From IMG/VR virus record IMGVR_UViG_3300032224_000679, positions 21,487 to 85,486 of that record: a stretch of DNA of 64,000 nt; one strand, given 5' to 3'. Numbering within the stretch: the first letter of the stretch is position 1; every line of letters begins with the position of its first letter. The notes beneath the pieces were generated by a model. That model worked only from the letters and a program-made list of their open reading frames with translations, had not been told where the DNA came from and made no database searches. Shown one piece after another: positions 61,739 to 61,854 of the stretch. Source of the stretch: a virus. A program made the position numbers and the translations under genes.

Positions 61739-61854
61739 AGGTTCGTTACAGCAAATTTTATAATCTTTTTTGAACAAAGAGGGACTGGGTTTGATTCCCA
61801 GCGCAAAGTTGGTCTTCTGTGTGGTGTACTGGATAGCACGAAAAAAGCGAACCT
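61739..61854 (+). ncRNA. CAGCAA-stem RNA 3 carrying a degenerate circularly permuted tRNA-like body
   Basis: aggttcgt/gcgaacct stem; arms in the order anticodon arm (TCTTT-TTTGAAC-AAAGA), T-arm, weak closed acceptor, D-arm. Confidence 0.65.

What the first reader, a model, noticed from the sequence alone, without database searches (positions are those of the whole stretch)
61739..61854. Second permuted tRNA-like cargo with a different breakpoint
Seen: the order is anticodon arm, variable ggga, T-arm ctggg-TTTGATT-cccag, weak acceptor (cgcaaag/ttctgtg) closed by a 6-nt loop, D-arm gtgt..gcac. The tRNA is therefore opened between the D and anticodon arms rather than at the variable loop. The anticodon reads UGA in the perfect register (UUG if shifted by one). 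Inference: two different breakpoints imply independent capture events, for example from tandem tRNA duplications or circular intermediates, i.e. a recurring way of loading new cargo on the handle.
Basis: partly seen in the sequence, partly recalled or inferred. Interest (0 to 1): 0.7.

Follow-up and report, generated by a model that had tools for sequence, protein, structure and literature searches.

The report
Sealed, permuted tRNA mimic on Ro60-type handle
This 116-base stretch in a lake phage's tRNA cluster is a conserved small RNA: a rearranged, sealed copy of a tRNA mounted on a short "handle" that in related phages sits next to a Ro60-like ring protein gene, so it is probably a new kind of Y RNA and not a working tRNA.

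Summary
At 61739-61854 (+) a 7-bp closing stem (AGGUUCG/CGAACCU) and the motif UUACAGCAA enclose, in order, an anticodon-arm-like hairpin (loop UUUGAAC), GGGA, a T arm, a 7-bp acceptor sealed by UUGGUC, and a D arm.

- **Conservation:** seventeen homologues in other uncultured phages keep every arm with compensatory changes. The window copy scores 118 bits on their covariance model. Re-permuted in silico, 25 of 26 such elements are called tRNAs.
- **Family:** it belongs to a large family. I found 323 distinct handle RNAs in about 1 Mb of phage tRNA clusters, always on the tRNA strand. Their cargo is a bare anticodon-loop hairpin, a permuted tRNA, or a larger RNA.
- **Partner protein:** the handle tracks a 470-aa DUF2828/DUF7788 protein whose predicted fold matches Ro60. 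It lies upstream of that gene in 61 of 65 protein-selected loci, and the gene is in 5 of 5 larger genomes that carry handles. The gene is not on this contig, which ends inside the tRNA cluster.

My best reading is a Y-RNA-like partner of a divergent phage Ro60, with the topology of YrlA but a different handle.

"Different breakpoint" is correct. "Independent capture" is not shown. Rfam has no such family, and my paper searches turned up no description of it. This scan has reported the same family before on other DNA.

The parts
61739..61745 (+). Handle, 5' strand (AGGUUCG)
   Evidence: It pairs with 61848-61854. Across the family, pairs 1-3 and 5 are near-fixed (A-U, G-C, G-C, U-A) and pairs 6-7 covary freely.
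61746..61754 (+). Handle motif UUACAGCAA (family consensus NNNCAGCAA)
   Evidence: CAGCAA is invariant in the 18 homologues. CAGCAA was part of my search pattern. 141 of 149 pattern hits in IMG/VR had the exact complementary stem downstream.
61755..61763 (+). A/U-rich spacer
   Evidence: Its sequence and length vary among homologues.
61764..61780 (+). Anticodon-arm-like hairpin UCUUU-UUUGAAC-AAAGA, with triplet UGA at 61771-61773
   Evidence: 4 of 5 pairs covary and 93% of cells are paired. In 13 close homologues the stem and the CU..AA loop frame are fixed while the triplet varies: GUA, GGA, GAA, GCA, ACG, UAG, UGA.
61781..61784 (+). Variable-region equivalent (GGGA; GGGU in most homologues)
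61785..61801 (+). T arm CUGGG-UUUGAUU-CCCAG
   Evidence: 99% of cells are paired and 2 pairs covary. Sixteen of the 17 homologues have the canonical loop UUCGAAU and one has UUCGAGU; the window copy has U at the C56 position.
61802..61821 (+). Acceptor stem sealed by a loop: CGCAAAG - UUGGUC - UUCUGUG. There is no free end and no CCA.
   Evidence: 6 of 7 pairs covary. The loop UUGGUC is conserved in 15 of the 17 homologues. All 15 true tRNAs in the window encode CCA.
61822..61839 (+). UG (positions 8-9) and D arm GUGU-ACUGGAUA-GCAC
   Evidence: 100% of cells are paired. The U.G pair is valid only on this strand, so the structure is RNA on the + strand. The GG of the D loop is kept.
61840..61847 (+). 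A-rich 3' linker GAAAAAAG
   Evidence: An A-rich run before the 3' handle strand is a family feature.
61848..61854 (+). Handle, 3' strand (CGAACCU), followed by GUU
   Evidence: G is the first base after the handle in 98% of 323 family members, and U in 92% and 87% at the next two positions.
61048..61104 (+). Sister handle RNA A (AGGAUAC/GUAUCCU). Its cargo is the hairpin UUUCA-CUGUUAA-UGAAA, an Asn GUU loop.
61610..61722 (+). Sister handle RNA B: a permuted tRNA-like RNA opened in the variable region (small hairpin, T arm, sealed acceptor, D arm, CCA anticodon arm)
63585..63639 (+). Sister handle RNA D (AGGAUGC/GCAUCCU). Its cargo is UUAGA-CUUUUAA-UCUAA, a Lys UUU loop.
63267..63486 (+). Large handle RNA (UUGUAAG/CUUACAA + UGUCAGCAAG, 206-nt cargo)
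   Evidence: It is conserved in six other loci. RNA-library contigs are very deep over it.

Best explanation
The element is a gene for a small structured RNA, co-transcribed with the phage's tRNAs. It belongs to a modular family in which a constant 'handle' carries variable cargo made of tRNA parts. The handle is a 7-bp closing stem, then NNNCAGCAA on the 5' side and an A-rich run on the 3' side, followed by a G-UU tail.

Here the cargo is a whole tRNA body in permuted order: anticodon-like arm, variable region, T arm, acceptor 3' strand, sealing loop, acceptor 5' strand, D arm. It should fold into a tRNA-like L shape. It has no chargeable end.

By analogy with Ro60 and its Y RNAs (inferred, not shown), the handle docks a divergent phage Ro60-like ring protein (DUF2828/DUF7788, HEAT ring plus vWA domain). 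The tRNA-shaped cargo is then presented to proteins that recognise tRNA.

- **Shown:** the RNA structure, its conservation, the family, and the two-way genomic link to the protein gene.
- **Inferred:** binding, processing and function.
For: **Structure and covariation:**

**Family size and handle**
- 141 of 149 pattern hits have the exact complementary stem.
- There are 323 distinct elements, with two handle pairs covarying freely.

**tRNA-operon context**
- 166 of 350 elements start 4-8 nt after the 3' end of a tRNA on the same strand.
- None of 6388 tRNA-element comparisons is on opposite strands.

**tRNA likeness:** 25 of 26 re-permuted elements are called tRNAs.

**Partner protein**
- Its gene was found in 43 of 119 RNA-selected loci.
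- 61 of 65 protein-selected loci have handle RNAs upstream on the same strand. Most often the last one ends about 24-40 nt before the start codon.
- The gene is present in 5 of 5 larger records that carry handles, three of them complete genomes.
- T4 lacks the protein and has only a chance-level pattern hit.

**Fold**
- The AF2 model has pLDDT 76.7 and pTM 0.77.
- The top 13 PDB matches are all Ro60/TROVE proteins (E = 4e-8 to 6e-5). TM is about 0.5 over the full length for the best-fitting ones.
- The MIDAS motif DxSxS is invariant.

**Precedent:** YrlA-type Y RNAs have the same V-T-sealed acceptor-D order and lie next to rsr, including in phages (PMC4201824, PMC12135203).
Against: - The Ro60-like gene is not in the 85-kb contig. 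The contig is about 24% complete and ends inside the tRNA cluster, so the link rests on relatives.
- There is no binding, expression or processing data for this RNA. RNA-library contigs cover it at depth 0-6 only, and contigs cannot prove transcription.
- The handle lacks the GNCGAA motif that marks known Ro60 binding sites.
- The Rfam YrlA model does not reach its threshold on the neighbouring element (23.5 vs 69 bits) and does not hit this element at all.
- The window copy has small defects: an A.C mismatch in the acceptor, U at the C56 position, and a 15/48 pair that is not standard.
Confidence: 0.64

Rival explanations
1. The cargo is bait. The anticodon-like loops and tRNA bodies act as decoys or sponges for host tRNA-cutting defence nucleases (PARIS AriB, PrrC or RloC types), with or without the Ro60-like protein. 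This addresses function and can be true together with the main explanation.
For: - The loops carry the anticodon-loop signature: C32 in 65%, U33 in 86%, A37 in 80%, A38 in 79%.
- The commonest triplets among short cargoes are UUU (25), UGU (20) and UGA (10), with GUU at 7. UUU, UGU and GUU are the three main AriB targets (PMC12409363).
- In 70 of 104 cases a real tRNA with the same anticodon lies in the same locus, so the mimics duplicate tRNAs and do not replace them.
- The mimics keep U36-A-A-U39 (Lys 24/24, Thr 18/20). Real phage tRNA-Lys and tRNA-Thr keep it in 19/49 and 25/69.
- The triplet is the fastest-changing site in homologues of this element.
Against: - The A/U-rich stems alone could explain UAAU and the U-rich triplets.
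- AriB also needs D-loop contacts (PMC12409363), which a bare hairpin lacks.
- This element's own loop (UUUGAAC, UGA) matches no characterised nuclease target that I know of.
- No defence system or host is known for this phage.
Confidence: 0.22
2. It is a true permuted tRNA gene, as in the red alga Cyanidioschyzon. The transcript would be cut and rejoined, or used in two pieces, to give a working tRNA-Ser(UGA).
For: - The re-permuted sequence is called a tRNA.
- M. smegmatis YrlA can be cut by RNase P and receive CCA (PMC4201824).
- No tRNA with anticodon UGA lies in the window.
Against: - The acceptor is sealed by a conserved 6-nt loop with no CCA, while all 15 true tRNAs in the window encode CCA.
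- Bacteria lack the splicing endonuclease route used for permuted tRNAs (established knowledge).
- The triplet changes among close homologues while the acceptor and body stay the same, which does not fit one amino-acid identity.
- An anticodon of the Ser type without the long variable arm would not be a serine tRNA.
- The same handle carries cargo that is not a tRNA.
Confidence: 0.03
3. It is debris or punctuation: decayed tRNA duplicates and spacer hairpins that only help RNases to cut the long tRNA transcript.
For: - The elements sit 4-8 nt after tRNA 3' ends and before the next tRNA.
- Junctions of adjacent tRNAs also trigger the YrlA model.
Against: - Arms are kept by compensatory changes across distant phages.
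- The window copy scores 118 bits on the family model.
- The CAGCAA motif and the tail are strictly conserved.
- There is a tight link to one protein gene.
- T4 and other phages process their tRNA clusters without such elements.
Confidence: 0.07
4. It is an ordinary member of the YrlA family that binds the host's canonical Rsr/Ro60, not a phage protein.
For: It has the same module order as YrlA (PMC4201824). The YrlA model gives a partial hit on the neighbouring element (23.5 bits).
Against: - The score is below the Rfam threshold (69 bits).
- There is no GNCGAA motif.
- No TROVE hit was found on the contig.
- The handle co-occurs with the DUF2828/DUF7788 protein instead.
Confidence: 0.04

Closest known systems
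YrlA-type Y RNAs with Rsr/Ro60 (Rfam RF02553; Chen et al. 2014, PMC4201824; structure in bioRxiv 10.1101/312249; Thermus phage phiLo Ro60 with Yrl1/Yrl2, PMC12135203)
   Same: - The 5' and 3' ends pair in a closing stem.
- The module order is stem-loop, T arm, loop-sealed acceptor, D arm.
- There is no free CCA end.
- The gene lies beside a gene for a Ro60-fold protein.
- The type is also found in phages.
- An origin from a tandem-tRNA junction has been proposed for YrlA.
   Different: - The handle is a 7-bp stem plus NNNCAGCAA, not GNCGAA in a bulged stem.
- It scores below the Rfam threshold.
- The partner protein is recognised by Pfam as DUF2828/DUF7788, not TROVE.
- There are many copies per genome, spread through the tRNA cluster.
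- The cargo is interchangeable and includes bare anticodon-loop hairpins.
- This element has an anticodon-like 7-nt loop, which YrlA lacks.
Circularly permuted tRNA genes of Cyanidioschyzon merolae and some green algae
   Same: The 3' part of the tRNA lies upstream of the 5' part. Different genes have different breakpoints.
   Different: - Those transcripts are matured into normal tRNAs by the eukaryotic/archaeal splicing endonuclease, RNase P and tRNase Z (established knowledge).
- Here the host is bacterial.
- The acceptor loop is conserved and carries no CCA.
- The anticodon is not conserved.
T4 stable RNAs rnaC and rnaD (species 1 and 2)
   Same: They are small stable RNAs of unknown function at the end of a T4-type tRNA cluster. 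rnaC ends in a T-arm-like hairpin.
   Different: They have no closing handle and no CAGCAA motif. T4 has no DUF7788 protein.
Dictyostelium Class I RNAs (Rfam RF01414)
   Same: A short stem joins the two ends and is followed directly by CCUUACAGCAA. This element reads GUUACAGCAA. Short handle RNAs match the model end to end at 26-34.5 bits.
   Different: All scores are below the threshold (41.5 bits), and this element reaches only 15.1 bits. These are eukaryotic RNAs with no tRNA parts. I did not test whether the two share a protein partner.

Membership tests
YrlA (RF02553) | Score at or above the Rfam gathering threshold (69 bits) | tested here: not met
   There is no hit on 61739-61854. The neighbour at 61638-61690 scores 23.5 bits. 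Junctions of adjacent tRNAs score 17-19 bits with the same model.
YrlA (RF02553) | GNCGAAN0-1G motif near the 5' end (proposed Ro60 contact) | tested here: not met
   The 5' part reads AGGUUCGUUACAGCAA. A CGAA occurs only by chance in this copy's 3' handle strand and is not kept in homologues.
YrlA (RF02553) | tRNA-like domain in the order V stem-loop, T arm, loop-closed acceptor, D arm, enclosed by the terminal stem | tested here: met
YrlA (RF02553) | Encoded within a few kb of a Ro60 (TROVE) gene on the same strand | tested here: inconclusive
   There is no TROVE, DUF2828 or DUF7788 hit in the 85-kb contig, which ends in the tRNA cluster. In relatives the handle lies upstream of a gene for a Ro60-fold protein.
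tRNA (RF00005) | Contiguous cloverleaf with free 5' and 3' ends (CCA encoded or added) | tested here: not met
   ARAGORN and Rfam make no call in native order. The only weak Rfam tRNA hit (21.6 bits) stitches the D and anticodon arms of element B to the T arm of this element. The acceptor is sealed by UUGGUC.
tRNA (RF00005) | All four arms and the core tertiary nucleotides are present | tested here: met
   After re-permutation the element is called a 72-nt tRNA. U8, the GG of the D loop and U54-U55 are present. The window copy has U at the C56 position, while 16 of the 17 homologues have UUCGAAU.
Permuted tRNA genes (algal type) | Bulge-helix-bulge motif at the junction and a splicing endonuclease that makes a circular intermediate | not testable with these tools
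   The ends form a plain 7-bp stem flanked by 9-nt and 8-nt linkers. The context is a T4-like bacteriophage. I did not search for the enzyme.
Handle-RNA family of phage tRNA clusters (no Rfam family; no description found in my paper searches) | 7-bp closing stem AGRWUNN with its complement, NNNCAGCAA after the 5' strand, an A-rich run before the 3' strand, and G-UU after it | tested here: met
Handle-RNA family of phage tRNA clusters (no Rfam family; no description found in my paper searches) | Lies on the tRNA strand inside a phage tRNA cluster | tested here: met
   It lies between tRNA-Pro (61528-61604) and tRNA-Cys (61864-61941), directly after handle RNA B.
Ro60 / TROVE proteins (partner protein in relatives) | HEAT-repeat ring plus vWA domain with a MIDAS motif | tested here: met
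   The top 13 PDB matches of the AF2 model are all Ro60/TROVE proteins (E = 4e-8 to 6e-5, TM about 0.5 for the best-fitting ones). DxSxS is invariant. Pfam assigns DUF2828 and DUF7788, not TROVE, and phmmer against PDB sequences finds nothing.
Dictyostelium Class I RNA (RF01414) | Score at or above the gathering threshold (41.5 bits) | tested here: not met
   This element scores 15.1 bits. The best short handle RNAs score 26-34.5 bits.

The most novel reading that the evidence does not exclude
The phage Ro60-like particle is a display platform for bait. Each handle RNA would present an anticodon loop or a whole sealed tRNA body to capture or mislead host nucleases that cut specific tRNAs. The fast-changing 'anticodon' triplets would then track the specificities of those nucleases in an arms race. 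If so, this is an RNA-based, reprogrammable counter-defence, and it would give Ro60/Y RNA particles a concrete function.
Probability: 0.2. Interest if true: 0.85.

Novelty: new variant of a known kind. Interest (0 to 1): 0.62.

Why it matters
Ro60 and its Y RNAs occur from bacteria to humans, yet what the RNA's variable part does is still largely open. Here the same architecture appears in a divergent and very widespread phage form. At least 586 viral contigs encode the protein.

In this form the variable part is readable. It is a tRNA, or just its anticodon loop, in many versions per genome, and the 'anticodon' is the fastest-evolving site. That points to tRNA-recognising proteins as the target and makes the question testable in cultured phages such as Stenotrophomonas phage DLP_6 and Pseudomonas phage Milchi.

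It also matters for annotation. These elements fill the 'empty' spacers of phage tRNA clusters and can be mistaken for pseudo-tRNAs or small ORFs. In Milchi, one is annotated as a hypothetical protein.

Tried and rejected
- **Close relatives among named phages.** BLAST found none. Only tRNA-sized patches matched.
- **T4 rnaC/rnaD.** They do not share the scaffold.
- **TROVE, DUF7788 and DUF2828 in the window's own contig.** None found. This is uninformative because the contig ends in the tRNA cluster.
- **Neighbouring ORFs.** The ten ORFs upstream of the cluster are radical-SAM, RecA-like, sugar-nucleotide and omega-like proteins and do not bear on the RNA.
- **Rfam.** At gathering thresholds on the window and five relatives it gave only tRNAs. 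Permissive scans gave only sub-threshold YrlA, tRNA, Dictyostelium Class I and permuted-tmRNA hits.
- **ARAGORN's 'permuted tmRNA' at 62754-63313.** I take this as spurious, since the Rfam model gives only 21 bits.
- **Sequence search of the protein against PDB.** Nothing was found. Only the fold comparison worked.
- **Donor tRNA for the cargo.** The best identities are 70-76% with mixed isotypes, so no donor can be named. The B-versus-C identity printed by that script is unreliable because of free end gaps, and I do not use it.
- **Synteny to place the protein gene just beyond the contig end.** The tRNA clusters are too rearranged for this.
- **Expression.** RNA-library contigs cover 61746-61839 at depth 0-6 in two of four runs. 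One contig from a relative carries a C-type element. Contigs cannot show transcription or ends, so I do not count this as evidence.
- **Does a mimic's triplet copy the preceding tRNA?** It does in only 1 of 84 cases.
- **Literature.** Searches for DUF2828 and for phage anticodon decoys gave no description of this RNA family.

Full report
**Context.** The window is the last 64 kb of an 85.5-kb IMG/VR virus record. CheckV estimates it at about 24% complete, and it has no terminal repeats. From 59.8 kb to the contig end it holds a one-strand cluster of 15 canonical tRNA genes, all with encoded CCA. The finding lies between tRNA-Pro (61528-61604) and tRNA-Cys (61864-61941).

**Observation.** The sequence reads, from 5' to 3':
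- AGGUUCG (61739-45)
- UUACAGCAA
- a 9-nt A/U spacer
- UCUUU-UUUGAAC-AAAGA (61764-80)
- GGGA
- CUGGG-UUUGAUU-CCCAG (61785-801)
- CGCAAAG-UUGGUC-UUCUGUG (61802-21)
- UG
- GUGU-ACUGGAUA-GCAC (61824-39)
- GAAAAAAG
- CGAACCU (61848-54)
- GUU

The minimum-energy fold recovers the closing stem, the hairpin, the T arm and the D arm, but for one sequence it is not striking (z = -1.67). ARAGORN and Rfam call nothing here in native order. The only weak Rfam tRNA hit is a chimera of this element and its neighbour.

**The handle is a family signature.** Four places in the window share (CCA)AGUUUU-AGGAUNC-NNNCAGCAA ... A-rich-GNAUCCU-GUU. I scanned IMG/VR for TTTAGGATNCNNNCAGCAA.
- 141 of 149 hits had the exact reverse complement of the 7-nt stem 35-190 nt downstream.
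- Allowing any 7-bp stem gave 323 distinct elements in about 1.05 Mb.
- Stem pairs 1-3 and 5 are almost fixed. Pairs 6 and 7 covary through all four Watson-Crick types.
- The base after the stem is G in 98% of elements.
- Every tRNA in these loci is on the element's strand (6388 comparisons to 0).
- 166 of 350 elements begin 4-8 nt after a tRNA 3' end.
- G.U pairs in the stems are valid only on that strand. The structure is therefore RNA, made as part of the tRNA transcript.

**Cargo classes.** Cargo length clusters around three size ranges.
- *About 30-50 nt.* This is an A/U-rich 5-bp hairpin with a 7-nt loop that carries the anticodon-loop signature (C32 65%, U33 86%, A37 80%, A38 79%) and many different triplets.
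- *About 70-120 nt.* This class contains a T arm, a loop-sealed acceptor and a D arm, with or without an anticodon-like hairpin.
- *130-240 nt.* These are larger RNAs of unknown type.

**Homologues of this element.**
- Seventeen sequences from other viral contigs share its layout. Fifteen of them keep the acceptor loop UUGGUC exactly.
- RNAalifold, given no hint, finds the handle, the hairpin with a 7-nt loop, the T arm and the D arm.
- 13 of 21 pairs change on both sides, including 6 of 7 acceptor pairs. The lower pairing in that helix (68%) comes from register errors in the MAFFT alignment.
- A covariance model built from the alignment scores the window copy at 118 bits, ninth of 17. It also finds about 40 further long-cargo elements at 30-63 bits over the full model length.
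- The window copy is a good member with small blemishes: one A.C mismatch, and U at the C56 position where 16 of the 17 homologues have UUCGAAU.

A script cut each element in the sealing loop and joined the arms in tRNA order. ARAGORN then called 25 of 26 as 71-74-nt tRNAs, this one as a 72-nt tRNA with anticodon UGA and its neighbour as CCA. The assembly used base-pair criteria, so the cloverleaf is partly built in. The conserved loop nucleotides are not.

Two topologies recur among the 26 elements that have an anticodon-like hairpin:
- 21 are 'C-type', with the hairpin before the T arm, so the tRNA is opened between positions 26 and 27. This element is C-type.
- 5 are 'B-type', with the hairpin after the D arm, so the tRNA is opened in the variable region. 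The neighbour is B-type.

Another 22 long-cargo elements have no such hairpin.

**The 'anticodon' is not conserved.** Among the 13 closest homologues the stem and the loop frame CU..AA are fixed. The triplet takes seven values (GUA 4, GGA 3, GAA 2, GCA, ACG, UAG, UGA). Its middle base is the most variable column of the whole RNA, at 1.95 bits.

This and three other facts argue against a decoding tRNA:
- The acceptor is sealed.
- There is no CCA in a cluster where every real tRNA encodes it.
- A Ser-type anticodon appears without a long variable arm.

**The partner protein.**
- *First lead.* A BLAST hit led to Pseudomonas phage Milchi, whose tRNA region encodes a 462-aa 'RNA-binding protein' with Pfam DUF2828 and DUF7788 (phrog_850).
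- *RNA to protein.* tblastn found the protein in 43 of the 119 RNA-selected loci, often about 100 nt downstream of a handle RNA.
- *Protein to RNA.* At least 586 viral contigs encode it. In 61 of 65 protein-selected loci with enough upstream sequence, one to three handle RNAs lie upstream on the same strand. Most often the last one ends about 24-40 nt before the ATG. Three of the four exceptions turned out to carry variant or over-long elements.
- *Whole genomes.* All five larger records with handle RNAs have one copy of the gene. These include three complete genomes of 168-364 kb and Stenotrophomonas phage DLP_6.
- *Negative control.* T4 has neither the protein nor more than a chance pattern hit.
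- *Fold.* An AlphaFold2 model from 30 homologues (pLDDT 76.7, pTM 0.77) has Ro60/TROVE structures as its 13 best PDB matches: Thermus phage phiLo, Deinococcus Rsr, Xenopus and human Ro60. E values run from 4e-8 to 6e-5, and TM is about 0.5 over the full length for the best-fitting ones. The vWA MIDAS motif is invariant.
- *Caveat.* The gene is absent from this window's contig. The contig stops inside the tRNA cluster, so for this phage the link is inferred from relatives.

**Comparison with what is known.** YrlA-type Y RNAs have the same order (V stem-loop, T arm, sealed acceptor, D arm, inside a terminal stem). They lie next to rsr and occur in phages (PMC4201824; 10.1101/312249; PMC12135203; PMC7824862). 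This element works like a YrlA but fails two tests for membership. It does not reach the Rfam threshold and it lacks the GNCGAA motif. It also has an anticodon-like loop, which YrlA lacks.

The family further differs in three ways:
- its partner protein is outside Pfam TROVE;
- it has many copies per genome;
- it includes minimal cargoes that are only an anticodon-loop hairpin.

Rfam 15 has no model for it, and my literature searches found no description.

Earlier agents of this scan reported the same handle RNA plus Ro60-like protein pairing on other phage genomes. I reached the reading before seeing those notes, and they agree with it.

**On 'independent capture'.** I could not name a donor tRNA. 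The nearest real tRNAs are 70-76% identical and of mixed isotypes. The cores do differ: D arm GUGU..GCAC here against GCUC..GAGC in the neighbour, and different sealing loops. Neither is therefore a recent copy of the other.

Both orders can still be cut from one tandem-tRNA junction, the origin already proposed for YrlA. They could equally arise by gain or loss of a hairpin on a shared T-acceptor-D core. The claim remains open.

**Function (inferred).** The most likely mechanism is a Y-RNA-type particle. The handle binds the ring protein, and the tRNA-shaped cargo engages a protein that recognises tRNA.

One specific version is that the cargoes are bait for tRNA-cutting defence nucleases. These hints fit it:
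- The commonest short-cargo triplets are UUU, UGU and UGA, with GUU also frequent. UUU, UGU and GUU are the three main targets of PARIS AriB (PMC12409363).
- The mimics usually coexist with a real tRNA of the same anticodon (70 cases against 34).
- They keep the UAAU that AriB needs more often than the phages' own tRNA-Lys and tRNA-Thr do.
- The triplet evolves fast.

A/U-rich stems could explain part of this, and this element's own loop matches no known target. I give this version about 0.2.

**Expression.** Lake-water metagenomes hold the sequence. Contigs from four lake-water or freshwater RNA libraries give very high depth over two other RNAs of the cluster, 62592-62685 and 63250-63625. 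Depth over this element is only 0-6. Contigs cannot establish transcription or ends.

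Noticed in passing
window 63267-63486 (+): A large handle RNA (UUGUAAG/CUUACAA, UGUCAGCAAG, 206-nt cargo with a T-arm-like GGGUUCAACUCCC) is conserved in at least six other viral loci. Lake RNA-library contigs reach word depths of 10^4 here. No Rfam family matches.
   Followed up: partly
window 62592-62685, inside the 62491-62760 spacer: This stretch has very high depth in RNA-library contigs of three studies (up to 4x10^4). There is no Rfam match and no obvious ORF. 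It may be another abundant structured RNA.
   Followed up: no
window 61048-61104 and 63585-63639: Two short handle RNAs have cargo that is only an anticodon-loop hairpin (CUGUUAA, Asn type; CUUUUAA, Lys type). The first follows tRNA-Asn(GUU). That is the only case in 84 where mimic and preceding tRNA share the triplet.
   Followed up: yes
G001:C1:238513-238568 and other short handle RNAs; window 61740-61787: The Rfam model of Dictyostelium Class I RNAs (stem plus CCUUACAGCAA) matches short handle RNAs end to end at 26-34.5 bits, below its 41.5-bit threshold. DUF2828 proteins also occur in eukaryotes, so a shared RNA-protein pairing may be worth testing.
   Followed up: partly
L025 2849-3310, L103 9457-9985, L115 1358-1830: A conserved array of three handle RNAs (cargo about 150, 220 and 40 nt) lies directly upstream of the Ro60-like gene. 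The two large cargoes are unknown structured RNAs.
   Followed up: partly
L127 5890-6260 (Pseudomonas phage Milchi): Milchi uses the variant motif UAACAGCAC instead of CAGCAA. One element there is annotated as a 42-aa hypothetical protein.
   Followed up: partly
window 63179-63259 (+): A weak tRNA call (34.8 bits) with an odd D region and an 81-nt length, which ARAGORN does not call as a tRNA. ARAGORN's 'permuted tmRNA' at 62754-63313 overlaps it and looks spurious.
   Followed up: no
window 60654-60959 (+): A small ORF with an RNA polymerase omega/Rpb6 domain (Pfam E = 2e-11) sits inside the tRNA island, just upstream of tRNA-Asn.
   Followed up: no
window 61292-61366 (+): The spacer after tRNA-Gly begins UUUUGUAAGUG and holds a hairpin with the loop CUGAUAA (Ile GAU type), but no CAGCAA. 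It may be a degenerate or variant member of the family.
   Followed up: no
window 51322-56987 (+): Three radical-SAM proteins (one with a B12-binding domain, one with SPASM) and a nucleotidyltransferase-cupin protein lie just upstream of the tRNA island.
   Followed up: no
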